Part shown: positions 35,043-60,493 of the stretch, piece by piece
Layout: each line of letters opens with the position of its first letter
Position numbering within the stretch: position 1 is the stretch's first letter
IMG/VR virus record: IMGVR_UViG_3300007513_000010
Source: a virus
Reading direction: 5' to 3' (one strand)
DNA length: 64,000 nt
The notes under the pieces: generated by a model
What the model was told of the DNA's origin: nothing
Databases searched by the model: none
Seen by the model: only the letters and a program-made list of their open reading frames with translations
Translations under genes and position numbers: made by a program

Positions 35043-35106
35043 AAAAATATTTTAAACTAATTAATAAGTGAGTTATAATTATAACTCTAATAGGAGATCT
35101 AATAAT

Positions 35107-39620: not shown

Positions 39621-42155
39621 ATGGAATTCAACGAACAGAAGTATTTAATTTGGAGCAAATTCATAAAGGAAGAACTGAATACACAATCTAGCTTTTCAAA
39701 AAAAAGAGAAACGGCCGTTCCATTAAATACAGTTACAAGTCTTACTGAAGACCCATCATCGACGTTGAGCAAGATCTTGTCTGCCAACCTCATTAAATCT
39801 GGCAAATCAAAGAGGGCTTTTGTGGACATGCCCACTCACAAACTATCCATGCTTGTGCCGTTTATACAATTATACAAAGTTGTCGGCGACGCATACCAGC
39901 CATTTTATTTTCCTAGACACCACCAGGAGATGGAAATAGAGTCGATAATGTCTGAAGGTGGGCGCTTGTCGGGATCGGGAATTAAGAGTTTTGATATAGT
40001 GTTTGAAGGGAAGGACACTTTTACAGCTGACAAGCTATTGAGATGCAATTTAAATTTCTATATCCAGGATATGAAGTCTCTTTTTAATTCTCCGGGTGGA
40101 AACTTTGCACCTTTGGCAGAACTGATCACAGCGCGCGCTCCGAATCAATTTATCATTGACTCTAAAAACAAGGCACACGCAGAACAGGTAAACAAATCTA
40201 GGTCTATCGAGATAAAGGTAGACCTAGGTTGGTCAGTATACCCGGAGATGTCAGAAGAATTCACTTCAGATGAGATTGAGGCAGTAAGAAACAACACGGT
40301 CTCCTTAAGGCTAACCTTGGTGGACCATAATATTAATTTTGCACAAGAGGGGGTTCTGACAATATCGGCCAGCTATATTGGAAGACTGGAATCCATGTTA
40401 GATAATAAAACTTCAGATATCCTGGTTTCTTCTGAAGATTTAAATTATTTTGCTAATATAAACAAGCAAATAGACTCTTTGAAAAAGGAATACAAAGAGA
40501 ATGATTCGGTGGTAGATAAGAAAGAAGAGGCAGTGATAGAAGAGGAGTCGAGAACAGCCCTGATTCAGAATTTTAGCACGATACTGGATCGTCTTGATCC
40601 TAAACAGAAGAGCTCTTTTTTTACAGAAGATATAACTCTCGCAAAGGAGGAAGAGTTTTTCGAATCTATTCAGACAAGTAAAAAGAAAAACAACGAAGTT
40701 GATAGCTCTAGGAAGAAAGCCGTCCGCGCCGCATCCGGCACTCCACCGCTAAACAAGCCTCAAAATAAAAAGAAATCAAAGAGAAAAAAGCCAAATCTAG
40801 CAGAAAGGACCATAAATTATATATATTTAGCAGACTTGATGGAGCAGGTCATGATAATTCTTAACGAAAACTATATGGCAATCAATGATGCAAAGATAAA
40901 AAAACAGCTAGAGTCTTTTAGGATAATCTTGGCAGACTTTCGCCTTTCTATCGTGGAAAAAAAGGGAGAAGCCTCCATTGCCACTATGCCATTTTCATTA
41001 GGGGAATTTCCCATATCCATAAGGGCGTTTTCAGAGTGGTTCAGAGACAACATAATAAAACCAGCTAAAGTTAAGTTTGGTTTTATGACATTCCTAGAGA
41101 CGATGATCAATGACTTGGTTTATGGTTCTCTGAGTAAGATGAATTACCGCGACGCTCCAATAATTAATGAAAATGTTAAATTTGGCATTGCTTCTGTGGT
41201 TTCATTGAGTGGTCATGGCAAGCTAAAGGGAAAAACTAAGATAAAAGCGGACGACATGCCCAGTTTTTCCGCAACTATGAGCACCAAACAGTTTGACAAT
41301 GATGTGGATTATATGATATTCTATTCTTATGTATCTGCGCAACCTTCGCAAAAAAATAAATCTGGTGATATAAACAAGGATGAGAAGGATGGAGTGTTTC
41401 ACCTATATCTTGGTCAAAACAGGGGAATAATTAAGGAAATAAACTTCAACAAGGTCGACCTTCAATATAGGAAGGAGTTTTTGATAGCAAATAGTTACTC
41501 TTTGTTTGACGAATTGAGACTGCCGTACAATGCGAGCATTTCTATGTTTGGAAACACCATTTTCCGCCCGGGCAGCCAACTTTATATAAACCCCTCAAGT
41601 ATAGGACTGGGAGACCCCAGAAACAAAAACTCTCCCGCAGTTCGTTTGGGCCTAGGCGGGTACTACACGGTGACTAAGGTGACTATGGACTTGAATGAGA
41701 CCACCTTTAACACAAACTTGGACGCGGTCTTTACTGGCTGGCCAGAAGCTAAGGGTGTTGCGGGGAAGCTTGCAAAACAGACCGCCATTCAGGTCGCAGC
41801 CGCCTCACAGATCGATGCCACCGCGACCACAGGGGGTTCTTCTCCAGATCCAAACCCAACACCCTTTAATAGGGTCTCTAACCCGGTGAATCCTCATTCG
41901 AATGTCACGCCGTCTTCTGTTAAATCTGGACGCCAGATAAGGAATGATCATTTGGCCGCAGCACAGTGGGCTTATAATAATCCTGGCCAGGTCCATTCTG
42001 AGTATGATATTAGCAGACAGACAGGTACTGTCACCGGAGGGCAGGCTGCAACCATGATAATGGTGCGAAAGAAGAACCATTTTCGTCATTTTGACTTTTT
42101 GTTTGACTCATCTGGAAACGTTATCCCAACTAGTGGTTGGAATCAAGGCCCGTAG
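39621..42155 (+). CDS. Putative baseplate hub protein (gp27-like)
   Basis: C-terminal YNASISMFGNTIFRPGSQLYI...GGYYTVTKV hub-type motif; position after the LysM-like gene. Confidence 0.55.
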   Translation: MEFNEQKYLIWSKFIKEELNTQSSFSKKRETAVPLNTVTSLTEDPSSTLSKILSANLIKSGKSKRAFVDMPTHKLSMLVPFIQLYKVVGDAYQPFYFPRHHQEMEIESIMSEGGRLSGSGIKSFDIVFEGKDTFTADKLLRCNLNFYIQDMKSLFNSPGGNFAPLAELITARAPNQFIIDSKNKAHAEQVNKSRSIEIKVDLGWSVYPEMSEEFTSDEIEAVRNNTVSLRLTLVDHNINFAQEGVLTISASYIGRLESMLDNKTSDILVSSEDLNYFANINKQIDSLKKEYKENDSVVDKKEEAVIEEESRTALIQNFSTILDRLDPKQKSSFFTEDITLAKEEEFFESIQTSKKKNNEVDSSRKKAVRAASGTPPLNKPQNKKKSKRKKPNLAERTINYIYLADLMEQVMIILNENYMAINDAKIKKQLESFRIILADFRLSIVEKKGEASIATMPFSLGEFPISIRAFSEWFRDNIIKPAKVKFGFMTFLETMINDLVYGSLSKMNYRDAPIINENVKFGIASVVSLSGHGKLKGKTKIKADDMPSFSATMSTKQFDNDVDYMIFYSYVSAQPSQKNKSGDINKDEKDGVFHLYLGQNRGIIKEINFNKVDLQYRKEFLIANSYSLFDELRLPYNASISMFGNTIFRPGSQLYINPSSIGLGDPRNKNSPAVRLGLGGYYTVTKVTMDLNETTFNTNLDAVFTGWPEAKGVAGKLAKQTAIQVAAASQIDATATTGGSSPDPNPTPFNRVSNPVNPHSNVTPSSVKSGRQIRNDHLAAAQWAYNNPGQVHSEYDISRQTGTVTGGQAATMIMVRKKNHFRHFDFLFDSSGNVIPTSGWNQGP

Positions 42156-42166
42156 GAGAAAAAGAG

Positions 42167-43345
42167 ATGGTAAAATTAACTGGAGAAAATAGCCTAGGAA
42201 TTACTGACCTGTATGACGCGCGTAAATTTTATAAAGAAGATTTCTATCCTGTTGAAGCCTTGTCGGAAATGCCCATAGATTTTTTATATGAAAATCCAAA
42301 TTATGGGCTGATAAATGAACAAGATGAGACAGTATATGTGTTGACAGACGAAGAGAGAGTAAATTTAAAAAAATTTGATACGGCTAGGGTATATGGTCTT
42401 AATTTTGTCGTCGATGCGTTTCACTCATTTAGAGAAGAGTTTTTACATGATGTGAGGGAGAATAGAATACCTTCGCTGCCAATAATAGGTGAACTCCTCC
42501 CGGCTGAATCGCATATTGACTTCGAAGAGCTTTATTTTAACTACTTAAGGAGCATGGAAGACTTTCTGATAAATGAATATATTGTTGACCATCATATTAT
42601 CAATTTTGAGGATCTTTTGGGCGCCATAAGAGAGTTTGTTTTGACGATGGCAAAAGATCATCCGATAACTAGAAGCGGCTTTATAGATTCTCGAAATTGC
42701 CCCCTGACTGCCTCCGGCCTGATTGTTGATGTTGGAAAACAGGACTGTTCTTCGGACCCTTTCAAGGGTGACCTCATCCAAAGCCGCGGCTTTGCTTGTT
42801 TCGTTCAGTATGCTGCTAGGCATGGTTTTTTAGTAGATAAAAACGCGCCCTGGCGTCTTGTCTGTGATACGCATTCAGAAAAAATGAGGAAGTATATGCT
42901 TCCCTATGCTAGCAGTGCTTTATCTAACGAGCAGATTTTAAACACTCGATATAGGGTGAAGTCTCACTACGATGATATATATGACCTACAAGATTACATA
43001 TTTAGAATGTATAAGTCGTTGATAAGGGTGAGCCCTTATTATATTCGCAGAGAGGGTAAAAAAAGATCTTTCATTTCTAGAGAAAATATGGTATGGTATA
43101 ATCAGAAGAAGTTTGATAAAATGTTTTGGCTTAAGTTGCTTTTCGACACGCGGATTGCAGAAATAGGTCATCCATCATCGTACCCGGAGTACGATTTAGA
43201 ATTAAAAGAGATACAAGATACGTTTCGAATTTTGGGTATGAGGTCCGCGCTAGGTAAATTGGGCGCAACAGTATCAAAAAGAAAAAAAAGAAACACTAGT
43301 ATCAATAGCTATGAACCAACAAAAGTGAAAGATTATATAAGATGA
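42167..43345 (+). CDS. Hypothetical protein
   Basis: SD AGGAG; aromatic-rich; HGFLVDKNAPWRLV segment; ATGA-coupled to the PolA-like gene. Confidence 0.6.
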   Translation: MVKLTGENSLGITDLYDARKFYKEDFYPVEALSEMPIDFLYENPNYGLINEQDETVYVLTDEERVNLKKFDTARVYGLNFVVDAFHSFREEFLHDVRENRIPSLPIIGELLPAESHIDFEELYFNYLRSMEDFLINEYIVDHHIINFEDLLGAIREFVLTMAKDHPITRSGFIDSRNCPLTASGLIVDVGKQDCSSDPFKGDLIQSRGFACFVQYAARHGFLVDKNAPWRLVCDTHSEKMRKYMLPYASSALSNEQILNTRYRVKSHYDDIYDLQDYIFRMYKSLIRVSPYYIRREGKKRSFISRENMVWYNQKKFDKMFWLKLLFDTRIAEIGHPSSYPEYDLELKEIQDTFRILGMRSALGKLGATVSKRKKRNTSINSYEPTKVKDYIR

Positions 43346-44406
43346 CGGCAGCGTTAATTGAGCTGACAACAGAAGAAGAAAAATACCTTTGGAAATATGA
43401 GCCCACCCTCGCGACTCAAGAAAGCACTTATTTATACTTGTACACTCTAGGCGCAAAGCTGGACGATATTCTTCCGCTTGAAATTGCATCTGAACTGAGT
43501 AGATATAGAGAAAAGGTGAAAGCAATTTTACTTACTTATAAAACTGCGAAAATAGAAGCTTCAAATTACAATTACAGAGAACTGATTCCAGAACATGTGT
43601 ATGAAAGATATGAGATGTATCATTCTCTTGCTCAAGGGTGGGTTGCAAAGAATGTTCCAAAACCCCGCCATTATAATATTTTAAGCAAGGCTCACGAAGT
43701 TGTGGAAGACATAGGCAGCCGCCGCCTTGGAAACTTAGAACAAAAGGTAAAATATAATATCTTCGGAACAAAAACAGGAAGACTCACCACTCAACCTGGA
43801 TCATTTCCTATTTTAACTTTACCAAAAAAGGAAAGGTCCCAAATAACTCCACAAAATGACCTTCTTGTCGAGATAGATTTTAATGGCGCTGAAGTGAGGA
43901 CTCTTTTGGCTCTGTCTGGAACTTCACTACCCGCAGATGATATACATTCGTGGAATATGAAGATGTTACCACCATGGTTAACCAGAGAGGAGGCGAAAGA
44001 AAAGTTCTTCGCTTGGCTGTATAATCCTGCCTCCAAAGAAGAATGCTTTTCAGGAGCCTATGACAAGAGTATCTATAAGAGACACTGGAAATCTGGAAAC
44101 CTTAACACCCCATATGGGAGAGAGATAGAGGTAGAGGAAAGTAAAGCTTTAAATTATCTCCTTCAATCAACCACAAGCGACATTGTGGTGGAGAACACGC
44201 ACAAAATAATGCTACAGCTAAAAGAAAGGGAAAGCTTTCTGTCATTCATGATGCACGACTCGGTTGTTTTAGATTTTTCTTCGAAGGACCTGGCTATTTT
44301 AAATAATATTTTAGAAGAGTTTAAAATAACCAGACTAGGAAAGTATCAAACTTCTGTTAGAATAGGAAAAGATTATTACAATATGAGGGAGATCTCAAAT
44401 GCTTAA
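43342..44406 (+). CDS. Minimal family A DNA polymerase-like protein (palm/fingers only)
   Basis: TKTGRL, motif A DFNGAEVR, DIH, motif B REEAKEKFFAWLY, ALNYLLQST and motif C MHDS. Confidence 0.75.
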   Translation: MTAALIELTTEEEKYLWKYEPTLATQESTYLYLYTLGAKLDDILPLEIASELSRYREKVKAILLTYKTAKIEASNYNYRELIPEHVYERYEMYHSLAQGWVAKNVPKPRHYNILSKAHEVVEDIGSRRLGNLEQKVKYNIFGTKTGRLTTQPGSFPILTLPKKERSQITPQNDLLVEIDFNGAEVRTLLALSGTSLPADDIHSWNMKMLPPWLTREEAKEKFFAWLYNPASKEECFSGAYDKSIYKRHWKSGNLNTPYGREIEVEESKALNYLLQSTTSDIVVENTHKIMLQLKERESFLSFMMHDSVVLDFSSKDLAILNNILEEFKITRLGKYQTSVRIGKDYYNMREISNA

Positions 44407-45250
44407 AATCGTTTCAATCGGCACACCGGCCAAAAATTTGGCGGCAAAATTTTCCAGATTTGAAAATTATGATTTTTTTGCTTTCGATGATGTTCCAGCT
44501 GAAGAAATTAAAAAACAATTTCTGTTACCCAAGCTGGAGTCTCCAGAAGAATATGAGTCTGTACGCCTTCCCGGTTTAGATAAGTTTTTGAAAAAAGTTT
44601 CTGGCGAAGTATTGTTATTAGTTTGTGGCGCTTCCATTTGCTCGGGCGTCACTTTAAGGTTGATGGAAAAGGTTTACAAAAATTGTACAAAAAAAATAAA
44701 AATTCTTTATATTTTGCCAGAGGTGGGATTGCTGAGTAGAACGAAATCACTACAAGAACGAACAGTTAGGAATGTCTTGCAGGAATATACCAGATCTGGA
44801 CTATTTGACAAAATGACTATTGTGTCCAATGCCGAAGTGGAAAAATCGATGGGGAATTGTACCATATTGGAATATTATGACAAACTTAATGAAACGATAG
44901 CCTATACCTACCACATGATTGAGGTTTTTAAGAACTCTAAACCTATTTCAAGTACGGTTTCGAAAATTGATGAATGCTCTAGGATTTCCACAATTGGTGT
45001 TTCCTCTTTGGAAAAATCTGAATCTGATTTGTTTTTTTCTATTGACGATGTGCGTGAAATCGTATATTATTATGGAATAAGTGAAAAAAAACTAAATAGT
45101 GAAAAAAACTTATTTCGAAAAATTGTAGAATCTATAAAAAGCAAAACAACAGAATACACTAGAGCATCATTTAGCATATATCAGACAAAATATGAAGACG
45201 ACTATGTTTACATTGAACATTATTCCCCTCGAGTACAAAAAAACACTTGA
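44399..45250 (+). CDS. Divergent tubulin/FtsZ-like protein
   Basis: KIVSIGTPAKNLAAKF (T1-like), LLVCGASICSG (degenerate GGGTGSG), ILPE, IVSN and YYDKLNETIA occur in tubulin/FtsZ order. Confidence 0.5.
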   Translation: MLKIVSIGTPAKNLAAKFSRFENYDFFAFDDVPAEEIKKQFLLPKLESPEEYESVRLPGLDKFLKKVSGEVLLLVCGASICSGVTLRLMEKVYKNCTKKIKILYILPEVGLLSRTKSLQERTVRNVLQEYTRSGLFDKMTIVSNAEVEKSMGNCTILEYYDKLNETIAYTYHMIEVFKNSKPISSTVSKIDECSRISTIGVSSLEKSESDLFFSIDDVREIVYYYGISEKKLNSEKNLFRKIVESIKSKTTEYTRASFSIYQTKYEDDYVYIEHYSPRVQKNT

Positions 45251-45275
45251 CAGAAAGATAAAAATTTAGTATAGT
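45247..45275 (+). promoter_or_regulatory. Strong sigma70-like promoter
   Basis: TTGACA-N17-TATAGT upstream of the SSB gene. Confidence 0.8.
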
Positions 45276-45343
45276 ATATACAGTTGGTCGGGAAATTTGC
45301 CGACCTGCTTTAGCCACAGAGTAAAAAAACAAGGAGAAAAACT

Positions 45344-46102
45344 ATGGCATTAAACTTAGACGCAATGCGCGCAAAATTAGACAAATTAAACGGAAAAGGT
45401 GACGGCACTAGAACTCAGTTCTGGCGCCCAGATGATGGTGAAAACAATATTCGAGTAGTCTCGACGCCAGATGGCGATCCCTTTAAAGAAAGGCATTTCC
45501 ACTATAATGTAGGTACGTCAGGCTTTTTGTGCCCGAAGAGAAACTTTGGAGACAACTGCCCTGTTTGTGATTTCGCAAACAAGCTGTGGAACGAAGGCAC
45601 CGAAGAATCGAAAAAGCAAGCAAAAGATCTTTTTGCGAAGCAAAGGTTTTTTTCCCCTGTTCTGGTTAGAGGCCAGGAAGACCAAGGCATCCGCGTCTGG
45701 GGTTTCGGAAAGATGGCTTATGAAAAGCTGTTGACAATTGTGCTAGATCCGGATTATGGTGATATCACAGACCCAGAAACAGGAAACGATCTGAAGATTA
45801 TGTACGGAAAGCTGCCTGGCGCATCATTTCCGCGGACAGATATTCGTCCACGCCCGCGAAAGTCGCCTCTTTGCGATGACGCCGTCGGAGGAGATGACCG
45901 CTGCGCCGAACTTCTGGAAACAATTCCAGAATTCGAAACTTTATTCGAAAGAAAATCTTCAGAAGAAGTGGCAGCAATTTTGGACCAGTTCTTGTCAGCT
46001 GACGGCGGAAATGACGAGATCCAAAAATTTGGTGAACAAAATGTCGCGACCAAGCCAGTGAGCAATGTTGAGGCTGCTTTTAACGACCTCCTAAATCAAT
46101 AA
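45344..46102 (+). CDS. Single-stranded DNA-binding protein (T4 gp32-like)
   Basis: FWRP, HFHY...CP...CPVC Zn site, VWGFGK, DITDPETGNDL, acidic tail ending FNDLL. Confidence 0.85.
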   Translation: MALNLDAMRAKLDKLNGKGDGTRTQFWRPDDGENNIRVVSTPDGDPFKERHFHYNVGTSGFLCPKRNFGDNCPVCDFANKLWNEGTEESKKQAKDLFAKQRFFSPVLVRGQEDQGIRVWGFGKMAYEKLLTIVLDPDYGDITDPETGNDLKIMYGKLPGASFPRTDIRPRPRKSPLCDDAVGGDDRCAELLETIPEFETLFERKSSEEVAAILDQFLSADGGNDEIQKFGEQNVATKPVSNVEAAFNDLLNQ

Positions 46103-46235
46103 ATATTAGCGCAGGAGGGCCCGGCTTATAGGGGCCCATTGTATAATAATGAGGGTGTTGCAAAGTCAACCATAGACCACTGATTTCTAATGATGAATGA
46201 TTGGGGCCCAAGATAACAAGAAAAGGAGAAACATT

Positions 46236-47609
46236 ATGAATACAAAAACAATCATGCTCAAATTGAGCAAAAATTCATCAGTGGCTAGAGTGCCACTAAA
46301 CAGCAAAGGGGTTATGCAGTATATTTTTTGCATCAATGCCCTTGACCCGGGAGACATCGCGATGATTCCCAAAAGTAAGTCTCAGCCAAGAGATTTGGAT
46401 ACGAACTCTCCAAAGATCGCGGCGATTAGAAAGTCAATGCGCGAAAAGCAAGGTCTTTCTGTAAAGAATGGAGGACTGGAGATAACAATAGACCCAGATT
46501 CATTTCAGTATAGTGAAGAAGACGGTTGGGTCAAATTCACATGCTCTACTAAGTTTTGCGGATCATGGGACGGCCAACATACCACCGCAGCAATTTTGCA
46601 AGAAATTGCAGATATTTTACAGGGTAGATCCGAGGTCGGATTTGAGTTTCAAACTTGTAGAATAGTGCTGACGGAGGATTCTTATTTTGACTCCTTAGAA
46701 GAGAGGAGAGAGGTTGCTTGTGCAATCAATCATCGCACTCCTCAGGAGCCTCGCTCAGAGCATAATGTCAGAGGCGACTTTGATACACTAAAGAACAACT
46801 TGACAAAGTCATTTGGAAATATTGGTTTCAAGCAGAATCAAAAATATCCTCAGACCCTTGAGATTATACCAAAAGATTCCAGTGTAACAGAAGTTACAGC
46901 ACTTTTGGCTCAGTATATGGGTCTTAGTGCTTATGATGGGCAGGACATCGAATATGCCAATAAAGCAAGAAGAAAAGGAGCTAGAATCGTAAAGGACTTC
47001 TGGCCCAAAACAGCAAGTTACTCTGAGTTTTCAAGCCAGGTAGTTACTATGGCGGATACAACATTGGAAATCTGTGATTATATTCAGGACTCTTGGAGTA
47101 CCATCAATGGTTATGAGAACTACCGAGTTTTGAGAAAGCACTCGAAAACTAAATTTAACAAACCCGTGAACCTTAAGGAATCTGAAAGATACATTTATCA
47201 CAGATTTACCAAACCTTCAGTGGCTGTTGCAAACCCTAGTATTACAACTTCTTTGGAAGTGAAAAGTGCAATTTTGGAAGATTTCCTGCCAGTTGTTTTA
47301 AGAGCAGTCCTAAATTGCGTGGTAAAGGTTGATAACAAATATAAAGGAAATGGAGGTCCTCTGTTTTCTTTGAATATTCCACTTTCTGAGATTAAGGATT
47401 TTTGGGATTTTGCAAAAGAAGAAGTTTTAAAAGAATTTGAAGAAATTTTTTGCAAGAACTTTCAAACTGCAAATTATAGAACTTTTATTATTGTGGAGAA
47501 TCATTTGATTTGGAACAAGGTGAGTCAAAAGGTCAATGGCCTCTATACAGACTATCAGCTTTCATCTGTAAAAACGGCAATGAAAGCAATAGAGGTGGCA
47601 AATGGCTAA
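46236..47609 (+). CDS. AIPR/ParB-Srx-fold-like protein
   Basis: QPRD, KNGGLEI and WDGQHT motifs resemble AIPR-family N(N/G)G...NG(G/Q)QT and ParB-like DGQHR; SD AAGGAG before ATG 46236. Confidence 0.45.
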   Translation: MNTKTIMLKLSKNSSVARVPLNSKGVMQYIFCINALDPGDIAMIPKSKSQPRDLDTNSPKIAAIRKSMREKQGLSVKNGGLEITIDPDSFQYSEEDGWVKFTCSTKFCGSWDGQHTTAAILQEIADILQGRSEVGFEFQTCRIVLTEDSYFDSLEERREVACAINHRTPQEPRSEHNVRGDFDTLKNNLTKSFGNIGFKQNQKYPQTLEIIPKDSSVTEVTALLAQYMGLSAYDGQDIEYANKARRKGARIVKDFWPKTASYSEFSSQVVTMADTTLEICDYIQDSWSTINGYENYRVLRKHSKTKFNKPVNLKESERYIYHRFTKPSVAVANPSITTSLEVKSAILEDFLPVVLRAVLNCVVKVDNKYKGNGGPLFSLNIPLSEIKDFWDFAKEEVLKEFEEIFCKNFQTANYRTFIIVENHLIWNKVSQKVNGLYTDYQLSSVKTAMKAIEVANG

Positions 47610-53115: not shown

Positions 53116-53445
53116 ATGTCTAGAATTCTTGAGAGAATGAGGCCGGTTAACCGCCACCTTTTAATTATTCCGCACACAAAAAAGAAAGAACAAACACGTG
53201 GGGGGGTTCTGCTTCCGGATGGGTTTGATGACACTCCCGGGCGTTACTCTGTGGTAACTGTTGTGGATGCCGCCTCAGATTGTTCAAAAGATTTTAAAAG
53301 ATTTTCGCTAGAAAGGTACACTGAGACTATAGATAGAAAGGCCGTGGTGGAAACTTCAATGATAGAGGAGATTGAAGTTAATGATAAAAAGCATCACTTA
53401 ATACTAGAAAATTATGTAGTGGGGATCATAGAGTCGCCATCATGA
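53116..53445 (+). CDS. GroES-like co-chaperonin
   Basis: MRPVNRHLLI...EQTRGGVLLPD mobile loop and C-terminal LILENYVVGII. Confidence 0.75.
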   Translation: MSRILERMRPVNRHLLIIPHTKKKEQTRGGVLLPDGFDDTPGRYSVVTVVDAASDCSKDFKRFSLERYTETIDRKAVVETSMIEEIEVNDKKHHLILENYVVGIIESPS

Positions 53446-55475
53446 TGTGGAAGTCTACGTTTGTTATTTTACTTGTTTGCTTGTTTTCTTGTCAAGAAAA
53501 TGTGAGATCTGAATACTCCTCAGATTCAGCTTTAGACTCTGCAGTTCGCATTGCTGTTCCTGACGCCCGCCCTGATCGCCCACCTGTTCCTGATATTAGA
53601 ATTATTTATCCTCGGTATGATTTAGGTCCGGATGCCATTGTCGACGCAGCCCCTCCGCCCCCTGTGTGTGAAAGACTGGGTCTCAGAGAGCCGTGTGAAA
53701 TAGAGGGTCTGCATGGGCCTTGTGCTACCGGAACAAAGGTCTGCAATATAACTCACTGGTCGGCCTGTACCCCGATAAGTTTTCCAAGAATAGAGATTTG
53801 TGACGGCTTGGACAATGACTGCGACGGCCGCCTGAACGAGGCACCCAACAGTTTGCATGAAGAACAAGAAGACCCTCAAAATCTTTTGTTATCTCGCGCT
53901 TGCTACACTGGTTCCCCCGGTACACAAAAAAACGGCCCATGCCACCCGGGTGTATCCGTTTGCAGAGAGCGCACGCGTAATACTGATGCTGGTGTGGAAA
54001 ACTATTATGATTATGGAGAGTGTGAACAACAGACTGTGCCCTCAGAAGAGGAATGCGATACCATTGACAATGACTGCGATGGCAACACGGACGAGGGCGT
54101 GTTAAATATCTGTAATCAGTGCGGACCGGACCCTATTGAAGTGTGTGACGGCTTAGATAACGATTGTGACGACGACACTGACGAGGGGGTTCTGAATGAT
54201 TGCGGCGAGTGCGGCGAATTACCCCGAGAGTTGTGCGACTTTGTTGATAATGACTGCGATGGAAGTATAGACGAAGACTTTGCAGACGAAGTCTGTGCAT
54301 GCGACCACCCCGATTATGTACCTCAGCCAGAAACTTGCAACGGTGCTGATGATGATTGCGACGGTTTTGTTGATGAAGGTCCCGCTGGCGGACCTTTGTC
54401 AATGCTTTGTTCGACGGATTTGATTACGAACGAGGTCATAACGTACGAAAGAAGAGAAGATGGTCCCGAATATGTTGCAGGAGATTGTCGCTTAGGGGCG
54501 GCTTTCTGTGAATCAGTTCGCAACGCACAAGGAGAATTAGAACATGGATACTTTGATTGTCAGCAGGAGATCCGCCCAGGAATCGAAAGGTGCAATGATG
54601 CAGACGATGATTGCGATGGCTTGGCAGATGAGGACTTTGAACAAGGATCGGTTGCTGTTATGATGGTGGTCGACGTTTCAGGTTCCATGGATGAGGGAGA
54701 ATTAACCGCTGCGTTTACAGCGACAAGAGATTCAGTTCGCCGATTGTTTAATGATGGCATAGTAGATGTTTGTTATATGTTGGCTATAGTGGGGAATGAT
54801 GATATGCCAGACCCTTATTTATTTTACCCTGCAGACACGTGTGTTCCTGGGGTTGAAGATCCACCGGTTGTCCCAATTGAAGACATGGCAAACGCGGTCA
54901 ATACTTTGCGCCTCAACTTGCGAGCTGGCAATATTAATCAAGGTGGTGGCACAGAAAATACTTTAGATGCTATGGGGCGCTTTTTTACAGATGACAGGAT
55001 AGACTGGGACCGGGATGGAGCTAACGATAACATTCTTTGGAGTACAAGCCGCCCCGCTGCACGTATTCAAGGAGTTGAAGATGCTTGGGATGTAGATCTT
55101 AGTCAATATACCCACAGGATTGTAATTGTGATAGGTGACGAGCCGGCCCAAGGTGCAGAATGGAACAACCATGCAGTTGCTACGGCCATGGCGCACGCAA
55201 ACGGCATGGCTTTCATTATTGGGAACAGGCAAAACGCTCACAGTTATCAGCCATTAATAGATTTTGGAGCAGTTCACAGCCCTGGCTTGCAGGGATTCGG
55301 AAATCAAAATCAACAACAGATTATTGACACTGTGGTAGAGGCCATTGAAGAGGCAGCATGTATCAATAACAGGGAAGAAGAGGAAGAAGAAGGGGCAGCT
55401 CTTACGAAAAGCACCAGATACTATTACGCTTCTGCATTAACGAGAATGAATTACAGGCTAAGGATGTGTTTGTAG
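53442..55475 (+). CDS. Lipoprotein with six ExC(D/N)xxD(N/D)DCD Cys-rich repeats and a VWA domain
   Basis: Lipobox-like LFSC after a hydrophobic N-terminus; PDA/DA linker; repeats such as EICDGLDNDCDG; MIDAS DVSGS, GGTE and IGDE. Confidence 0.8.
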   Translation: MMWKSTFVILLVCLFSCQENVRSEYSSDSALDSAVRIAVPDARPDRPPVPDIRIIYPRYDLGPDAIVDAAPPPPVCERLGLREPCEIEGLHGPCATGTKVCNITHWSACTPISFPRIEICDGLDNDCDGRLNEAPNSLHEEQEDPQNLLLSRACYTGSPGTQKNGPCHPGVSVCRERTRNTDAGVENYYDYGECEQQTVPSEEECDTIDNDCDGNTDEGVLNICNQCGPDPIEVCDGLDNDCDDDTDEGVLNDCGECGELPRELCDFVDNDCDGSIDEDFADEVCACDHPDYVPQPETCNGADDDCDGFVDEGPAGGPLSMLCSTDLITNEVITYERREDGPEYVAGDCRLGAAFCESVRNAQGELEHGYFDCQQEIRPGIERCNDADDDCDGLADEDFEQGSVAVMMVVDVSGSMDEGELTAAFTATRDSVRRLFNDGIVDVCYMLAIVGNDDMPDPYLFYPADTCVPGVEDPPVVPIEDMANAVNTLRLNLRAGNINQGGGTENTLDAMGRFFTDDRIDWDRDGANDNILWSTSRPAARIQGVEDAWDVDLSQYTHRIVIVIGDEPAQGAEWNNHAVATAMAHANGMAFIIGNRQNAHSYQPLIDFGAVHSPGLQGFGNQNQQQIIDTVVEAIEEAACINNREEEEEEGAALTKSTRYYYASALTRMNYRLRMCL

Positions 55476-56212: not shown

Positions 56213-57069
56213 AAACTCCTAGAGAAAAGAAAAAGACAAACACCGTAGGTGTTATACCTGTTTCGGGCTGGTCGGATCGCTTAGGGTTTATCTGGCCTGA
56301 TTGTTGCTCTCCTGTTGGTTTGTCTTATATGGCTATAGAGAGGAGCATCTTGGAGTGTGCGTATGCTGGATGTAGTTCGATATGGGTTGTTTGCAACGAC
56401 GCGTCGGCCCCTTTGATAAAAGAGAAGATAGGTGATTATATTATCGCCCCTCATTGTTATGAGTCAAGACCGTACGTTAAATACTTTAAAGAACACATAA
56501 AGCATGTTCCTGTTTTTTATGTTCCGGTTCACCCTAAGGATCGTGACCGTAGAGATAGTTTAGGTTGGTCTGTTCTACACGGGTGCTTGAGTGCCTTCCT
56601 GGTTTCATCTCAAATAAGCTCTTGGATTGCACCAAGAAAATATTATGTTAGTTTTCCTTATGGCTTGTATGACCCTCTTATAGTGAGGGACCACGTTAAA
56701 GAAATAAACTCTGAAAAGAACTTTTTCTTATCTTTTGGCGATCTCACGGTCCGGGATAATTTATATCTTGGGTTTACGATTTCTCCAGATGAGTGGAAAC
56801 AATTGCGTTATGATCTAAAAATTTCTTGCACTGGTGGAGATAAAAGCATCCCGTATTATAAAAGATGGTCATCACGATATTTTACCCTTGACAAAATATT
56901 TAAAAATGATAATATAGTAGTAGACAAGAAAAGAGAAATTAAAAAATATCACGACTTATCTAGCTGGGACTCGTTAGAAAAGTTTTATAAATCTTCCCTA
57001 TCGCTCGAAAAGCCGGCCGATAGAATAATTGGTCCGTTTTATTATAAAGGAATATACGAAATTGAATAA
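56209..57069 (+). CDS. Divergent sugar-nucleotidyltransferase-fold protein
   Basis: VGVIPVSG..DRLG...P...PVG....IERSILECAYAGCSSIWVV follows the NTP_transferase N-terminal layout. Confidence 0.5.
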   Translation: MKTPREKKKTNTVGVIPVSGWSDRLGFIWPDCCSPVGLSYMAIERSILECAYAGCSSIWVVCNDASAPLIKEKIGDYIIAPHCYESRPYVKYFKEHIKHVPVFYVPVHPKDRDRRDSLGWSVLHGCLSAFLVSSQISSWIAPRKYYVSFPYGLYDPLIVRDHVKEINSEKNFFLSFGDLTVRDNLYLGFTISPDEWKQLRYDLKISCTGGDKSIPYYKRWSSRYFTLDKIFKNDNIVVDKKREIKKYHDLSSWDSLEKFYKSSLSLEKPADRIIGPFYYKGIYEIE

Positions 57070-60000
57070 CAGACAATCGCCTAGCATACCTTTCGTTGGT
57101 CTGCACGCCCACTCAGTAGCGGGCTCTCCGTTTGATGCTCTTGGTTATCCACAAGAACATATGGAATATGCTTATGAGAACGGTATGGATGCCCTAGCGC
57201 TCACCGACCACGGCAACGCTAATGGGTTGGCATACCAAGTCTTGCATGCCAAAGAGATGAAGAAGCAAGGGAAAGATTTTAAGCCAATTTTTGGAGTGGA
57301 GGCTTATTTTATACCATCTGTCTCTAATTGGAAAAAAGATTATGAGAGAATTAAATCAGAAGCCAAGAGAAAATCAGAATATGAGGTAGACTCATCCGGG
57401 ACTACGGTTGAAGACGAAGAATCAAAGAAAAAGATGAAGTCCACCCTCAACAAGAGAAGGCATTTAATCCTGCTGGCCCAGAATCAAACAGGCTTGCAAA
57501 ATATATTTAAAATGATCTCACATTCATACATCGGAGACAGTTTTTATCGCTACCCTCGCGTAGATTATGCACTGCTAAAGAAGCATAACGAAGGCGTAAT
57601 AGCTGCTTCGGCTTGTTTGGGGGGTGTCTATGCAGGTGATTATTGGGAGAACAGAGATTTTGGAGCCGATGCAGTCCTCACTGCAATGAGGTCGACCACC
57701 CAAAAAATGGTAGATATTTTCGGTCCAAGATGGTATGGGGAATTACAGTGGAACAATATTCCAGAACAACATGAACTTAATCAGTATATTATTCAGATGC
57801 ACTATGAACACGGTATAGATCTCATATCTACAGCCGACAGCCATTACTATTCACCCAATGCCTGGAAAGACAGAGAACTCTATAAAAGACTCGGCTGGCT
57901 CGGCCGCGGCCGCCCAGACTACTTATCAGAAGAGTTGCCCACTTCTGTGGAAGAGATCGGCTACGAACTATACCCCAAAAATGGAGATCAGATGTGGGAA
58001 TCATATCTTGAGTATTCTAAGTTGGCAGGTATCAAATATGATGACGACTTGGTGATGAATTCTATCACCAAGACACACAAGATTGCACACTCGATGATAG
58101 AGGACTTTATCCCAGACAATACAGTGCGATTACCAGACTTTGTAGTCCCGGAGGGCTCCACCCCTGCTCAGGCTCTTGCTGCATTGTGTGTTGAGGGCTC
58201 TCGCACTCTGGGTTTTTCTGGTAATCAATTTTATACTGATCGATTAAAGACAGAACTTGAGGTTATAGAGTCTAGAGGTTTTTCAAAATACTTTTTAACT
58301 ATGAAGGCCATTTCCTCCCGAGCAGAACAAAGCCAACTAGTTGGTCCTGGCCGCGGCTCAGCCGCAGGTTCGCTGGTTTCATACGCCCTGGGAATAACCC
58401 AGGTGGACCCGATAAAATACGGCCTTCAGTTTGAAAGGTTTCTAACAAAGGGAGGCTCAGGATATCCTGATATAGATTATGATGTTTCAGACCCAATGTC
58501 GTTAAAGGAAAGTTTGATAGAAGAGTGGGGGGACGACACTGTGGTTCCGATCACCAATTGGAACACACTTCAGTTGAGGTCCTTGATCAAAGATATATCT
58601 AAATTTTATGGTATCGAGTTCACCGAGGTCAACAATGTGACGAGCAAAATGGTTTATGAGGCTACGCCGCTGGCTAAAAAGGAGCATGGCATAACTGCGG
58701 GAGTCTATGTTCCGACGTTTGAAGAATTGATGAAATATTCTTCCACCTTGCAGGAATTCTTAAACAAGTACCCACAAGTCAAGACGCACGTTAGCGCGCT
58801 TTATGGTCAAACCCGATCCGCATCCCGTCATGCTGGCGGCGTAGTGGTCGGCGAAAATCTCAATACGTGGATGCCGCTCATAAATAGCGGCGGCGTCCGC
58901 CAAACTCCGTGGTCGGAAGGGCAACATGTAAGGCACCTCGAACCTATGGGTTTTATTAAGTTTGATATCTTAGGTCTTGCGTCGCTTAGAATGATGGAGG
59001 GTGCTATAGAAAGGATCCTGCAGCGACACCAAAACATAGAGAGTCCCACCTTCGATGATATAAAGGGTTTTTATGATTCGAATCTTCATCCGGATAGCAT
59101 AGATTTATCAGACGAAGGCGTGTGGAGGAACATCTTTCACAAAGGAAAATGGGCAGGAATATTTCAGTTTACTGAATCTGGAGCGCAGTCTTTCTGCAAA
59201 AACGCAAAACCAAACAACATAACAGATTTAGCAGCAATAACAAGTATTTACCGCCCGGGCCCATTGTCTGCGGGGGTTGATAGGATGTATGTGGGGGCGA
59301 AGCACGCACCAGAAGAGGTGGAATACATTAATGATACTTTTAAAAAAGTCACAGAGGAAACTTATGGTTTTTTGATTTTTCAGGAGCAAATTGCCATGTT
59401 GGCGCACAAGCTTGGAAAAAACCTTTCTCTTGACGAGGGAAATAAACTTAGGAAGCTTTTAACAAAGAAGGGGGCCGGCGAAGTTCAAGAACAGAAAGAT
59501 AAAATTTGGCTTAAGTTTCGAGAAGGTTGTGTAGAAAAGGGTATGCCAAAGTGGCAAGCTAAGGAAATATGGGACAAGTTTGAATATTTTTCAGGATATG
59601 GTTTTAACAAATCACATGCAGTATCATATTGTATTTTATCTTTTCAGTGTGCTTGGCTGCTGAATTATTACCCTGTTGAGTGGCTTGCTGCATATTTGGA
59701 TAAAGAGCCAGAAAAGAAAAAAGAGCGTGCTATTGCAACTGCAAAATCGTATGGGTTTAATATAGAGCCGCTAAATATAAACACTTCGGGGTCACAGTGG
59801 GACATCGCAGAAGACGACAAAACACTTATACAGCCCCTTTCATCTATTAAGGGATTGGGGTCTGCAGCAATTGAACAAATTATAAACAATAGACCCTTCA
59901 ACACTATTGAAGAGTTTTTGTTTCATGATGACATTAAATATTCGAAGCTAAATAAGAAAGCTTTGGACGCTTTGGTCAGAAGCCAGACACTAAATATACT

Positions 60001-60493
60001 CATGGATGAGCGGTTCACTGGTCTTAAGCATTTTTGGTCTGCAATCGCCGTCGATCGACCTAGAAAGCAGAAAAATTTAGAAGAAAACGTAACAACGTAT
60101 GCTCCAGAGGGAGACTTTACCGAGGAAGAAAAGTTAGAATATCAAGTATCTTTAACTGGTGTTTTTCCAATTAATGCGGTTGTCACGGATGCTGTCCGTA
60201 GAAAATTAGACGAGCTATATATTCCCCCCATTTCTGAGTATGATCCAGATTTGGGCGTAACTTGGTTTATACCTAGAGAGTGCATTCTGAAGAAGTCTAA
60301 GAATAATAAAAACTTTTATGTAGTAAAAGTAATAGATGATAACAACGAGACAAATGTGATAAGATGCTGGGGTGTCGACCCAGAAAAGGACCTTATTCAT
60401 ATTAATAGGCCGTACATGGCTCGTCTTAAATATGATCCTAATTGGGGCTTCTCTACGTTTAGTGTGAGAAAGATGTTTAAACTGTTGGCATAG
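57062..60493 (+). CDS. dnaE: DNA polymerase III alpha subunit (family C)
   Basis: PHP motifs LHAHS, LTDHG and ADSHY; GPGRGSAAGSLV; catalytic PDIDYD; HAGGVV, KFDILGL, GIFQF, YRPGP, FQEQ and GFNKSHA. Start TTG 57062 (track start 57029). Confidence 0.95.
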   Translation: MNNRQSPSIPFVGLHAHSVAGSPFDALGYPQEHMEYAYENGMDALALTDHGNANGLAYQVLHAKEMKKQGKDFKPIFGVEAYFIPSVSNWKKDYERIKSEAKRKSEYEVDSSGTTVEDEESKKKMKSTLNKRRHLILLAQNQTGLQNIFKMISHSYIGDSFYRYPRVDYALLKKHNEGVIAASACLGGVYAGDYWENRDFGADAVLTAMRSTTQKMVDIFGPRWYGELQWNNIPEQHELNQYIIQMHYEHGIDLISTADSHYYSPNAWKDRELYKRLGWLGRGRPDYLSEELPTSVEEIGYELYPKNGDQMWESYLEYSKLAGIKYDDDLVMNSITKTHKIAHSMIEDFIPDNTVRLPDFVVPEGSTPAQALAALCVEGSRTLGFSGNQFYTDRLKTELEVIESRGFSKYFLTMKAISSRAEQSQLVGPGRGSAAGSLVSYALGITQVDPIKYGLQFERFLTKGGSGYPDIDYDVSDPMSLKESLIEEWGDDTVVPITNWNTLQLRSLIKDISKFYGIEFTEVNNVTSKMVYEATPLAKKEHGITAGVYVPTFEELMKYSSTLQEFLNKYPQVKTHVSALYGQTRSASRHAGGVVVGENLNTWMPLINSGGVRQTPWSEGQHVRHLEPMGFIKFDILGLASLRMMEGAIERILQRHQNIESPTFDDIKGFYDSNLHPDSIDLSDEGVWRNIFHKGKWAGIFQFTESGAQSFCKNAKPNNITDLAAITSIYRPGPLSAGVDRMYVGAKHAPEEVEYINDTFKKVTEETYGFLIFQEQIAMLAHKLGKNLSLDEGNKLRKLLTKKGAGEVQEQKDKIWLKFREGCVEKGMPKWQAKEIWDKFEYFSGYGFNKSHAVSYCILSFQCAWLLNYYPVEWLAAYLDKEPEKKKERAIATAKSYGFNIEPLNINTSGSQWDIAEDDKTLIQPLSSIKGLGSAAIEQIINNRPFNTIEEFLFHDDIKYSKLNKKALDALVRSQTLNILMDERFTGLKHFWSAIAVDRPRKQKNLEENVTTYAPEGDFTEEEKLEYQVSLTGVFPINAVVTDAVRRKLDELYIPPISEYDPDLGVTWFIPRECILKKSKNNKNFYVVKVIDDNNETNVIRCWGVDPEKDLIHINRPYMARLKYDPNWGFSTFSVRKMFKLLA

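What the first reader, a model, noticed from the sequence alone, without database searches (positions are those of the whole stretch)
42167..45250. Coupled three-gene unit: unknown protein, mini-PolA and degenerate tubulin/FtsZ
The three ORFs overlap (ATGA at 43342; 8-nt overlap at 44399) and sit between the baseplate block and the SSB promoter. The third follows the tubulin/FtsZ motif order, but its GTP-binding glycine loops are eroded (IGTPAKN, CGASICSG) and it has no obvious PhuZ-like C-terminal tail. Known phage tubulins (PhuZ, TubZ) position DNA. A possibly GTPase-dead tubulin tied to a minimal polymerase is not a system I recognise. It could be a replication-organising scaffold or an FtsZ inhibitor.
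Basis: inference. Interest (0 to 1): 0.7.

Follow-up and report, generated by a model that had tools for sequence, protein, structure and literature searches.

The report
Minimal phage tubulin beside mini-PolA
An uncultured marine T4-like ("Far-T4") phage carries a real but stripped-down 283-residue relative of tubulin/FtsZ next to a small exonuclease-less DNA polymerase I gene; it belongs to a large, uncharacterised, phage-only family whose function is still unknown.

Summary
Three ORFs (42167-43345, 43342-44406, 44399-45250) overlap by ATGA and by 8 nt. They lie between the baseplate genes and a strong sigma70-like promoter in front of the gp32-type SSB gene.

ORF3 has a tubulin/FtsZ fold. 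The AlphaFold2 model has pLDDT 94.3. VIA-align gives Z 24.5 to CetZ, 22.8 to TubZ and 20.3 to FtsZ; the next fold scores Z 9.4 or less. No Pfam, PHROG or NCBIfam model detects it.

The family is large: at least 590 IMG/VR contigs and 896 clusters at 50% identity. It is almost phage-only, and members are about 265-300 residues with no C-terminal tail.

Family-wide conserved residues sit at every nucleotide-contacting element, so "GTPase-dead" is not shown. The window's loops (SIGTPAKN, GASICSG) are a variant conserved within its sub-clade, not random decay.

ORF2 keeps all polymerase motifs but has no exonuclease domain.

The order p844-ORF1-PolA-FtsZ-like-gp32 held in every sampled locus with room. 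Promoter layout and evolutionary rate pair PolA with the FtsZ-like gene, and ORF1 (LAS-like fold, no zinc ligands) with the baseplate operon.

The function is inferred, not shown. This scan already reached a similar verdict on other DNA (e1-5879635).

The parts
42167..43345 (+). ORF1, 392 aa. Function unknown. Its central domain resembles the Hedgehog/DD-peptidase (LAS) fold but has no conserved zinc ligands. It is probably the last gene of the baseplate/tail operon.
   Evidence: The ORF is listed. Pfam, PHROG and NCBIfam give no hit. The AF2 model has pLDDT 90.8. The top 12 VIA-align hits are all LAS fold, Z 5.2-7.4; Foldseek gives E 0.035 to VanXY. No His is conserved, and 'APWR' stands where LAS enzymes have 'xWH' (the WH motif is from my own knowledge). 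No promoter motif lies upstream of it in 0 of 58 loci. Its identity to relatives (29%) matches that of the 844-aa baseplate-block protein (28%).
43342..44406 (+). ORF2, 354 aa. Minimal family-A DNA polymerase: palm, fingers and a short thumb only, with no 3'-5' or 5'-3' exonuclease domain.
   Evidence: PF00476 scores 33.9 bits against a cut-off of 34.3; phrog_17 gives E 4.5e-12. It aligns to KlenTaq in three blocks. Motif A is EIDFNGAEVR, motif B is REEAKEKFFAWLY and motif C is MHDS. These residues are conserved in at least 60% (most in at least 90%) of 62 family members.
44399..45250 (+). ORF3, 283 aa. Compact, tail-less member of the tubulin/FtsZ superfamily, from a new phage-restricted family.
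   Evidence: The AF2 model has pLDDT 94.3 and pTM 0.92. Foldseek against the PDB gives FtsZ at E 2e-12 and TMq 0.71, plus TubZ and CetZ. VIA-align gives Z 24.5 to CetZ, 22.8 to TubZ, 20.3 to FtsZ and 16.3 to PhuZ, with non-tubulin folds at 9.4 or below. The ESM Atlas's own model has TM 0.86-0.88 to viral TubZ-like clusters.
44385..44391 (+). Shine-Dalgarno sequence GAGGGAG for ORF3, lying inside the 3' end of ORF2.
   Evidence: Read directly from the sequence.
45247..45275 (+). Sigma70-like promoter TTGACA-17-TATAGT. It overlaps the ORF3 stop codon and starts the gp32 transcript, so it marks the 3' boundary of the unit.
   Evidence: It is the best site of the region, 11 of 12. The pattern is enriched in the window: 6 matches against 1.06 expected. 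The same motif lies upstream of gp32 in 47 of 80 loci. It is aligned in A3.
45284..45307 (+). Conserved 8-bp hairpin with loop GAAATTTG in the gp32 mRNA leader, followed by the conserved CTTTAGCC (45308-45315).
   Evidence: Alignment A3 covers 31 loci. In one search, 97.2% of cells pair, 8 of 8 pairs show compensatory changes, and the covariation score is 0.929 against 0.346 for shuffles (0 of 500 reach it). No Rfam family reaches its gathering score.

Best explanation
ORF3 is a genuine, minimal member of the tubulin/FtsZ superfamily. It is 283 aa, has both domains and has no C-terminal tail. It belongs to a large uncharacterised family confined to marine 'Far-T4'-type myoviruses.

The family keeps conserved residues at every nucleotide-contacting element: T1 G-x-G-x-x-G, an invariant Glu in T2/T3, T4 G-[SAG]-G-x-[IV]-S-G, T5 P-[DE], the T6 Asn and the H7 Tyr and Asn. 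It therefore most likely binds a nucleotide and assembles head-to-tail like TubZ, PhuZ or CetZ. That step is inferred.

In most relatives the gene is transcribed together with an exonuclease-less but catalytically intact PolA from a sigma70-like promoter embedded in the 3' end of ORF1. This makes a two-gene operon at the head of the replication module (gp32, RecA/UvsX, FEN, DnaB, RNR, DnaE).

The mini-PolA plus the separate FEN most likely supply Pol I-type gap filling and primer removal, while DnaE replicates the genome. That division of labour is inferred.

The tubulin-like protein most plausibly organises or positions replicating phage DNA or the replication machinery. This is inferred from gene context and by analogy with TubZ and PhuZ.

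ORF1 is more probably the last gene of the baseplate operon than a partner of the other two genes.

The window's copy belongs to a sub-clade with a conserved variant of the two glycine loops (S-x-G-x-P-A and G-A-S-x-x-S-G). That looks like altered, not abolished, nucleotide handling.
For: Fold.

Family size and phage restriction: 114 homologues; at least 590 IMG/VR loci; 896 clusters at 50% identity, 354 of them at E<=1e-30; only 3 MAG contigs among 185,579 species genomes.

Nucleotide elements over 250 members: G8 99%, G6 84%, G11 82%, G77 96%, S82 72%, P107 90%, N144 86%, Y159 83%, N164 88%. E50 is invariant over the 53 sequences of A1. The register against E. coli FtsZ puts these on T1, T4, T6 and H7 (the score is not significant, but the register agrees with the fold).

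Sub-clade variant: T4 reads 'GAS' in all of the closest relatives, which are 44-74% identical.

Synteny: PolA lies upstream in 68 of 68 loci with room; the two genes overlap or lie within 1 nt in 39 of these (43 within 200 nt); gp32 lies downstream in 70 of 71.

Promoter motif TTGAC[AT]-N16-18-TAnnnT within 200 nt upstream of each gene: PolA 42 of 64, gp32 47 of 80, FEN 25 of 54, ORF1 0 of 58, p844 0 of 29, the FtsZ-like gene 4 of 79, RecA 1 of 67.

Rate classes, as median identity to the window: p844 28% and ORF1 29%; PolA 39% and FtsZ-like 40%; FEN 51%, gp32 57% and RecA 72%.

PolA motifs are conserved. DnaE, FEN, DnaB and RNR are present.
Against: No biochemical property was tested, or could be tested, here.

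The canonical tubulin signature GGGTG[ST]G is absent from the whole family, and the window has lost 2 of 3 T1 glycines and 1 of 3 T4 glycines.

No acidic residue of the T7 region is strongly conserved; the best position is 64% D/E. Polymerisation-stimulated hydrolysis is therefore doubtful.

There is no tail, no TubR-like gene and no centromere-like repeat, so how the protein would couple to DNA is unknown.

In the window itself, and in its closest relatives, no promoter is seen before PolA. Here the three genes may simply be read through from the baseplate operon.

The whole region is collinear in this lineage, so synteny alone does not prove a functional link. Other genes are inserted between PolA and the FtsZ-like gene in 25 of 68 loci. 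No fused PolA-tubulin form was found.
Confidence: 0.45

Rival explanations
1. One reading: a nucleotide-independent or hydrolysis-dead tubulin-fold scaffold that binds the mini-PolA directly. It would act as an accessory or tethering subunit and would not form a dynamic filament.
For: The genes overlap or lie within 1 nt in 39 of 68 loci (43 within 200 nt) and share a promoter. The two proteins evolve at the same rate, 39% and 40%. The glycine loops are non-canonical and the T7 region has no conserved acid. The most conserved motif of the family, VLQEY[TA]RSG (Q128, R132 and S133 at 97-99%), is not a known nucleotide motif and could be a partner surface.
Against: All base-contacting, ribose-contacting and phosphate-contacting elements still carry conserved residues, which would not be expected if nucleotide binding were irrelevant. 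Other genes are tolerated between the two genes in 25 of 68 loci. No fused form exists. Flavobacterium phage immuto has a related PolA in the same module but no tubulin-like gene.
Confidence: 0.2
2. A host-takeover factor. The tubulin-fold protein would cap or co-polymerise with host FtsZ and so block or redirect cell division during infection.
For: It shares the fold with FtsZ (Z 20.3). It lacks the tail that anchors FtsZ to the membrane, as a capping subunit could. Degenerate loops would suit a poison subunit.
Against: Identity to FtsZ is only 10-14%, and the best structural matches are CetZ and TubZ rather than bacterial FtsZ. The gene sits in the replication module next to a polymerase, not among early host-takeover genes. 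The family stays conserved across phages that probably infect different hosts. Nothing tests an interaction with FtsZ.
Confidence: 0.12
3. The adjacency is only lineage collinearity. The tubulin-like protein would have a role unrelated to PolA or replication, for example positioning capsids or virion assembly sites, or shaping the cell as CetZ does. The 'unit' would then be an accident of a conserved backbone.
For: The whole stretch p844-ORF1-PolA-FtsZ-like-gp32-RecA-FEN is collinear in all sampled loci. The best structural match is CetZ, a cell-shape protein. In the window no promoter separates the trio from the late baseplate genes.
Against: In most relatives PolA and the FtsZ-like gene share a sigma70-type promoter of the kind also found before gp32 and FEN. 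They do not carry the ACTATTTA motif that marks the virion genes.
Confidence: 0.18

Closest known systems
TubZ (type III plasmid partition GTPase of Bacillus pBtoxis/pXO1-type plasmids; also Clostridium botulinum phage c-st)
   Same: Two-domain tubulin/FtsZ fold: Z 22.8 to 4ei7, 21.0 to 3m8k and 19.4 to c-st TubZ 4xcq. The Atlas model has TM 0.86-0.88 to viral TubZ-like clusters. Both are encoded by a mobile replicon, and the T1 loop is of G-x-G-x-x-G type.
   Different: About 100 residues shorter and without a C-terminal tail. There is no TubR-like gene and no tubC-like iterons nearby. PF00091 and the TubZ_C models do not detect it. T4 reads G-[SAG]-G-x-[IV]-S-G, and GASICSG in the window. 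The gene lies inside a lytic-phage replication module.
PhuZ (tubulin of phiKZ-like, nucleus-forming jumbo phages)
   Same: A phage-encoded member of the tubulin superfamily, thought to act on phage DNA during infection.
   Different: A weaker structural match: Z 16.3 (3rb8), 16.4 (3zbq) and 15.7 (9pm9). It has no acidic C-terminal tail of the kind PhuZ needs for filament contacts (that requirement is from my own knowledge). The genome is about 180 kb and is a Far-T4-type myovirus. The presence of chimallin was not tested.
CetZ (archaeal cell-shape tubulin-family protein)
   Same: The best structural match: Z 24.5, rmsd 2.9 A over 261 residues (3zid_B), and Z 23.3 (4b45).
   Different: CetZ is archaeal and chromosomal, is about 60 residues longer with a C-terminal extension, and is detected by PF00091. 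Sequence identity is only 11-15%.
FtsZ
   Same: Same fold: Foldseek E 2e-12 and TMq 0.71, VIA-align Z 20.3. The order T1/T4/T6/H7 is the same.
   Different: It has no linker and no conserved C-terminal peptide. It has no GGGTGTG and no NxDxxD T7 motif. Neither HMM nor hhalign gives a significant match.
Polymerase domain of bacterial DNA polymerase I (Klenow/KlenTaq), for ORF2
   Same: Motifs A, B and C and the TGRL motif are present and conserved. The phage also encodes a separate FEN/5'-3' exonuclease.
   Different: Only 354 aa, with no exonuclease domains and shortened thumb and fingers. Motif C reads HDS instead of HDE. It coexists with a DnaE-type Pol III alpha.

Membership tests
Tubulin/FtsZ superfamily (ORF3) | Two-domain fold: a Rossmann-like GTPase domain, the core helix H7 and a C-terminal domain | tested here: met
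   Model pLDDT 94.3. Z 15-24.5 to 17 tubulin-family representatives over residues 1-283, with the next fold at Z 9.4. Foldseek E 2e-12. The independent Atlas model agrees.
Tubulin/FtsZ superfamily (ORF3) | Tubulin signature motif [SAG]-G-G-T-G-[SA]-G in loop T4 | tested here: not met
   The window reads G-A-S-I-C-S-G. The family consensus is G-[SAG]-G-x-[IV]-S-G, with G77 96%, G79 60%, S82 72% and G83 60%.
Tubulin/FtsZ superfamily (ORF3) | Glycine-rich T1 loop (G-x-G-x-x-G) | tested here: inconclusive
   The family meets it: G6 84%, G8 99%, G11 82%. The window reads S-I-G-T-P-A and keeps only G8.
Tubulin/FtsZ superfamily (ORF3) | Catalytic acidic residue in the T7 loop (FtsZ NxDxxD; alpha-tubulin E254) | tested here: inconclusive
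   No acidic position in residues 179-195 is conserved above 64%.
Tubulin/FtsZ superfamily (ORF3) | Detected by the Pfam Tubulin model PF00091 | tested here: not met
   No Pfam hit at E<=0.1. No PF00091 hit at E<=10 in the six frames of the record, while 13 of 14 control genomes were detected.
Tubulin/FtsZ superfamily (ORF3) | GTP binding, GTP hydrolysis and nucleotide-dependent polymerisation | not testable with these tools
   This needs biochemistry.
TubZ type III partition system | Adjacent TubR DNA-binding adaptor and tubC centromere repeats | tested here: not met
   The neighbours are PolA (or a MazG-like gene) and gp32 in all loci. No iteron-like repeats were found in 41900-46300.
TubZ / PhuZ | Extended C-terminal tail used for filament or adaptor contacts | tested here: not met
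   The last strand ends at residue 276 of 283. Nearly all listed family members are 264-300 aa.
PhuZ (nucleus-forming phages) | Co-occurrence with the chimallin shell protein | not tested
   No chimallin search was run. The record is only 70% complete.
Family A DNA polymerase (ORF2) | Motifs A (D..E), B (RxxxKxxxFxxxY) and C (HD) | tested here: met
   The motifs read EIDFNGAEVR, REEAKEKFFAWLY and MHDS. They are conserved in 62 relatives. PF00476 scores 33.9 bits, just under its 34.3-bit cut-off.
Family A DNA polymerase (ORF2) | 3'-5' exonuclease (proofreading) domain, as in Klenow or T7 polymerase | tested here: not met
   The whole 354-aa protein aligns to the polymerase domain only (KlenTaq residues about 130-540).
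LAS / Hedgehog-DD-peptidase zinc hydrolases (ORF1) | Fold | tested here: inconclusive
   The top 12 VIA-align hits are all LAS fold, but Z is only 5.2-7.4 over 99-138 residues. Foldseek gives E 0.035.
LAS / Hedgehog-DD-peptidase zinc hydrolases (ORF1) | His/Asp/His zinc ligands | tested here: not met
   No His is conserved at 60% or more in 35 homologues. Invariant R230 stands in 'PWR'.

The most novel reading that the evidence does not exclude
The family is a new, minimal class of cytomotive or scaffolding tubulin. It would work together with an exonuclease-less PolA in ordinary (non-jumbo, non-nucleus-forming) marine phages. For example, it could form a nucleotide-dependent filament or ring that concentrates or tethers the gap-filling polymerase and nascent DNA into a replication factory, without any TubR-type adaptor or C-terminal tail.
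Probability: 0.15. Interest if true: 0.85.

Novelty: new variant of a known kind. Interest (0 to 1): 0.6.

Why it matters
Known phage tubulins are PhuZ of nucleus-forming jumbo phages and TubZ of phage c-st. They are about 315-380 residues long and depend on C-terminal tails and, for TubZ, on an adaptor.

This family is among the smallest complete tubulin/FtsZ-fold proteins, at about 265-300 residues. It lacks the canonical signature motif and any tail. It is invisible to Pfam, PHROGs and NCBIfam, yet it is a core gene of an abundant marine phage lineage (at least 590 IMG/VR contigs, 896 clusters at 50% identity).

If it polymerises, it would show how little of the tubulin scaffold is needed for assembly. 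It would also extend cytoskeleton-assisted DNA replication to ordinary-sized lytic phages. If it does not polymerise, it would be a rare example of the tubulin fold reused as a non-filament nucleotide switch or adaptor.

The canonical-loop clade and the window-type 'GAS' clade form a natural comparison for how the glycine loops tune nucleotide handling.

Tried and rejected
- Cultured phages: blastn of the unit and tblastn of ORF3 and ORF1 against 50,697 cultured-phage records gave no match. Profiles A1 and A2 found nothing in Flavobacterium phage immuto or Microcystis phage Mel-JY01.
- Split-tubulin idea: the two small ORFs that occupy the same slot in immuto are not a split tubulin. The genes upstream in Mel-JY01 are not homologues of ORF1 or PolA.
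- Family libraries: Pfam, PHROGs and NCBIfam gave nothing for ORF1 and ORF3. PF00091 gave no hit in the six frames of the record.
- Sequence links to solved structures: the family profile against PDB sequences gave only chance hits at E>1. hhalign against E. coli FtsZ was not significant (E 0.16) and was used only for register.
- Fusions: no fused or longer forms were found. Nothing longer than 314 aa appears among the top 150 representatives.
- TubR/tubC: the small gene found between PolA and the tubulin-like gene in relatives is MazG-like, not a DNA-binding adaptor. No iterons were found.
- ORF1: the ESM Atlas gave no usable lead. The reading of ORF1 as an active peptidase is rejected because no zinc ligands are conserved.
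- gp32 leader: Rfam gave only a weak freshwater-2 hit below threshold.
- Literature: five full-text searches and three papers read turned up no description of this family. The Far-T4 paper (PMC4360716) mentions neither tubulin nor FtsZ. This shows absence from the held library only.
Full report
CONTEXT

The window is bases 60343-124342 of a 126,975-bp IMG/VR virus record estimated to be 70% complete. Almost all long ORFs (at least 120 aa) are on the + strand. Upstream of the finding lie the major head, tail sheath, tail tube, baseplate hub and baseplate wedge genes. Downstream lie a gp32-type SSB, a RecA/UvsX-like recombinase, a FEN/5'-3' exonuclease, a DnaB helicase, a class II RNR, a DnaE-type Pol III alpha, a dUTPase and a GMP reductase/IMPDH-like gene.

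The capsid protein is closest to those of Flavobacterium phage immuto, Microcystis phage Mel-JY01 and Rhodothermus phage RM378. This places the phage among the uncultivated 'Far-T4' myoviruses described in PMC4360716. No cultured phage matches the unit at the DNA or protein level.

OBSERVATION

The three ORFs, the ATGA overlap and the 8-nt overlap, the two quoted loop strings and the lack of a tail are all as described. The best sigma70-like site of the region, TTGACA-17-TATAGT (11 of 12), overlaps the ORF3 stop codon and precedes gp32.

ORF3: FOLD

With a 53-sequence alignment (A1), AlphaFold2 gives a model with pLDDT 94.3 and pTM 0.92.
- Foldseek against the PDB returns FtsZ (E 2e-12, TMq 0.71), TubZ and CetZ over about 314 aligned columns.
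- An exhaustive VIA-align search gives CetZ Z 24.5 (rmsd 2.9 A over 261 residues), CetZ2 23.3, TubZ 22.8 and 21.0, tubulins and BtubA about 20, FtsZ 20.3, phage c-st TubZ 19.4 and PhuZ 16.3.
- The first non-tubulin fold, an SDR Rossmann protein, scores Z 9.4.
- The ESM Atlas's own model has TM 0.86-0.88 to viral TubZ-like clusters. One cluster of the protein's own family carries an automatic 'Tubulin/FtsZ GTPase domain-containing (Fragment)' label. The fold has therefore been noticed by automated annotation, although I found no paper on it.

No sequence method detects the relationship: Pfam, PHROGs and NCBIfam, PF00091 over the six frames, the profile against PDB sequences and hhalign against E. 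coli FtsZ (E 0.16).

ORF3: FAMILY

- There are 114 homologues in the word-indexed search.
- There are 896 representative clusters at 50% identity, 354 of them at E<=1e-30.
- At least 590 IMG/VR contigs carry a member.
- Only three MAG contigs among 185,579 species genomes carry one.
- Members are about 265-300 aa. No form of 497 aa or longer was found.

ORF3: NUCLEOTIDE POCKET

Over 250 near-full-length members the conserved positions are:
- T1: G6 84%, G8 99%, G11 82%.
- T4: G77 96%, G79 60%, S82 72%, G83 60%.
- T5: P107 90%, followed by D/E 90%.
- T6: N144 86%.
- H7: Y159 83%, N164 88%.
- E50 is invariant across the 53 sequences of A1.

The hhalign register puts these on FtsZ T1 (GGGGGN), T4 (GGGTGTG), N165 and F182/N186.

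All six glycine positions are kept in 107 of 250 members. The window (SIGTPAKN; GASICSG) has lost G6, G11 and G79. Its T4 'G-A-S' is shared by all of its nearest relatives, which are 44-74% identical. That indicates a conserved variant rather than decay.

No acidic residue in the T7 region is strongly conserved; the best position is 64%. The most conserved motif is the family-specific VLQEY[TA]RSG at the end of H5.

I conclude that nucleotide binding is likely, that hydrolysis and polymerisation remain open, and that 'GTPase-dead' is unproven.

ORF2

ORF2 aligns with KlenTaq in three blocks that span the polymerase domain only. Motif A (EIDFNGAEVR), motif B (REEAKEKFFAWLY), motif C (MHDS) and the TGRL and NY..QST motifs are conserved in 62 relatives.

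It is therefore a probably active polymerase with no exonuclease domain. It sits beside a separate FEN and a DnaE. The simplest reading is a split Pol I function for lagging-strand maturation. That is inferred.

ORF1

ORF1 has 40 homologues, and its model has pLDDT 90.8. The top 12 VIA-align hits are all Hedgehog/DD-peptidase (LAS) fold, but Z is only 5.2-7.4, and Foldseek gives E 0.035. No histidine is conserved, so it is not a zinc peptidase.

SYNTENY AND OPERON STRUCTURE

I examined four metagenome contigs and 80 IMG/VR loci. The order is always p844 - ORF1 - PolA - (insert) - FtsZ-like - gp32 - ... - RecA - ... - FEN.
- PolA is upstream of the FtsZ-like gene in 68 of 68 loci with room.
- The two genes overlap or lie within 1 nt in 39 of these loci, and lie within 200 nt in 43.
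- In the other 25 loci another gene, usually MazG-like, lies between them.
- An ORF1 homologue lies directly upstream of PolA in all 59 loci with room. My script flagged 10 of these as 'not adjacent', but only because of over-long ORF calls.

The promoter motif TTGAC[AT]-N16-18-TAnnnT occurs within 200 nt upstream of each gene as follows:
- PolA 42 of 64, where it is embedded in the 3' end of ORF1
- gp32 47 of 80
- FEN 25 of 54
- ORF1 0 of 58
- p844 0 of 29
- the FtsZ-like gene 4 of 79
- RecA 1 of 67

It is concentrated in the virion genes up to position 35056.

Median identity to the window falls into three classes:
- p844 28% and ORF1 29%
- PolA 39% and the FtsZ-like gene 40%
- FEN 51%, gp32 57% and RecA 72%

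Together these results pair PolA with the tubulin-like gene and ORF1 with the baseplate operon. In the window and its nearest relatives no promoter is seen before PolA. Here the trio may be read through from the late operon.

Flavobacterium phage immuto has PolA-SSB-RecA-FEN-DnaB in the same order but no tubulin-like gene. PolA therefore does not require it.

VERDICT

The fold and the synteny are shown. Nucleotide binding is a strong inference. Polymerisation and a role in organising replication are inferences from context and analogy.

The family fails the sequence-level definitions of tubulin/FtsZ and the system-level definitions of TubZ and PhuZ (no adaptor, no tail). I therefore file it as a new variant within the tubulin superfamily and not as a member of any named family.

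An earlier follow-up in this scan (e1-5879635) reached essentially the same verdict on a different genome. I re-derived it independently here and added the operon, rate and loop-variant analyses.

Noticed in passing
window 45247-45343: The gp32 mRNA leader has a sigma70-like promoter, then an 8-bp hairpin with the conserved loop GAxATTTG (45284-45307), then the conserved CTTTAGCC. The hairpin is conserved in 30 other loci, where 97.2% of cells pair, 8 of 8 pairs show compensatory changes and 0 of 500 shuffles reach the observed score. No Rfam family reaches its gathering score; the only hit is a weak freshwater-2 match at 15.3 bits. It is a candidate translational operator for gp32 autoregulation, by analogy with T4 gene 32 (my own knowledge).
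   Followed up: yes
L003:6740-6790, L005:6545-6580 and about 35 other loci (3' end of the ORF1 homologues): A sigma70-like promoter, often with an extended -10 (TGnTAtAnT), is embedded in the coding 3' end of the ORF1 homologue, 7-165 nt before the PolA start. It is found in 42 of 64 loci. It is absent in the window and its closest relatives.
   Followed up: partly
L067:5681-6004, L049:5690-6004 and about 18 other loci: A gene of about 105 aa lies between PolA and the tubulin-like gene in many relatives but not in the window. Its KLVRDRIPEII...EE.EF...P..EE.AD..EV sequence looks like a MazG-type NTP pyrophosphohydrolase. That identification is from my own knowledge and was not checked against a family library.
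   Followed up: partly
window 46197-47609: A 470-aa ORF lies between gp32 and RecA. It has no family match and is found in only 3 of the ORF sets sampled. It is a variable insertion in an otherwise collinear module.
   Followed up: no
window 952-35063 (+ strand): ACTANTTA (mostly ACTATTTA) is enriched, with 25 matches against 8.75 expected and 0 of 100 shuffles reaching that count. It is concentrated upstream of virion genes, while gp32 and FEN carry sigma70-like promoters. This fits the earlier first-reader note e1-5786828 about a non-T4 late promoter.
   Followed up: partly
window 53442-55475; L037:1466-3391: A 677-aa protein carries repeated MopE-type 'CDGxDNDCDG' metal-binding motifs. A 641-aa protein with the same repeats is inserted between PolA and the tubulin-like gene in locus L037.
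   Followed up: no
L014, L027, L064, L078, L080, L083 (C-termini of ORF1 homologues): Many ORF1 homologues end in a Gly/Ser-rich tail that finishes ...GGG(S)Y*. I read this from the DNA printed. The window's ORF1 ends instead in a basic KRKKRN... segment.
   Followed up: no
window 57029-60493: A DnaE-type Pol III alpha with a PHP domain (1154 aa) coexists with the mini-PolA. No primase was identified in the part of the window that I scanned.
   Followed up: no
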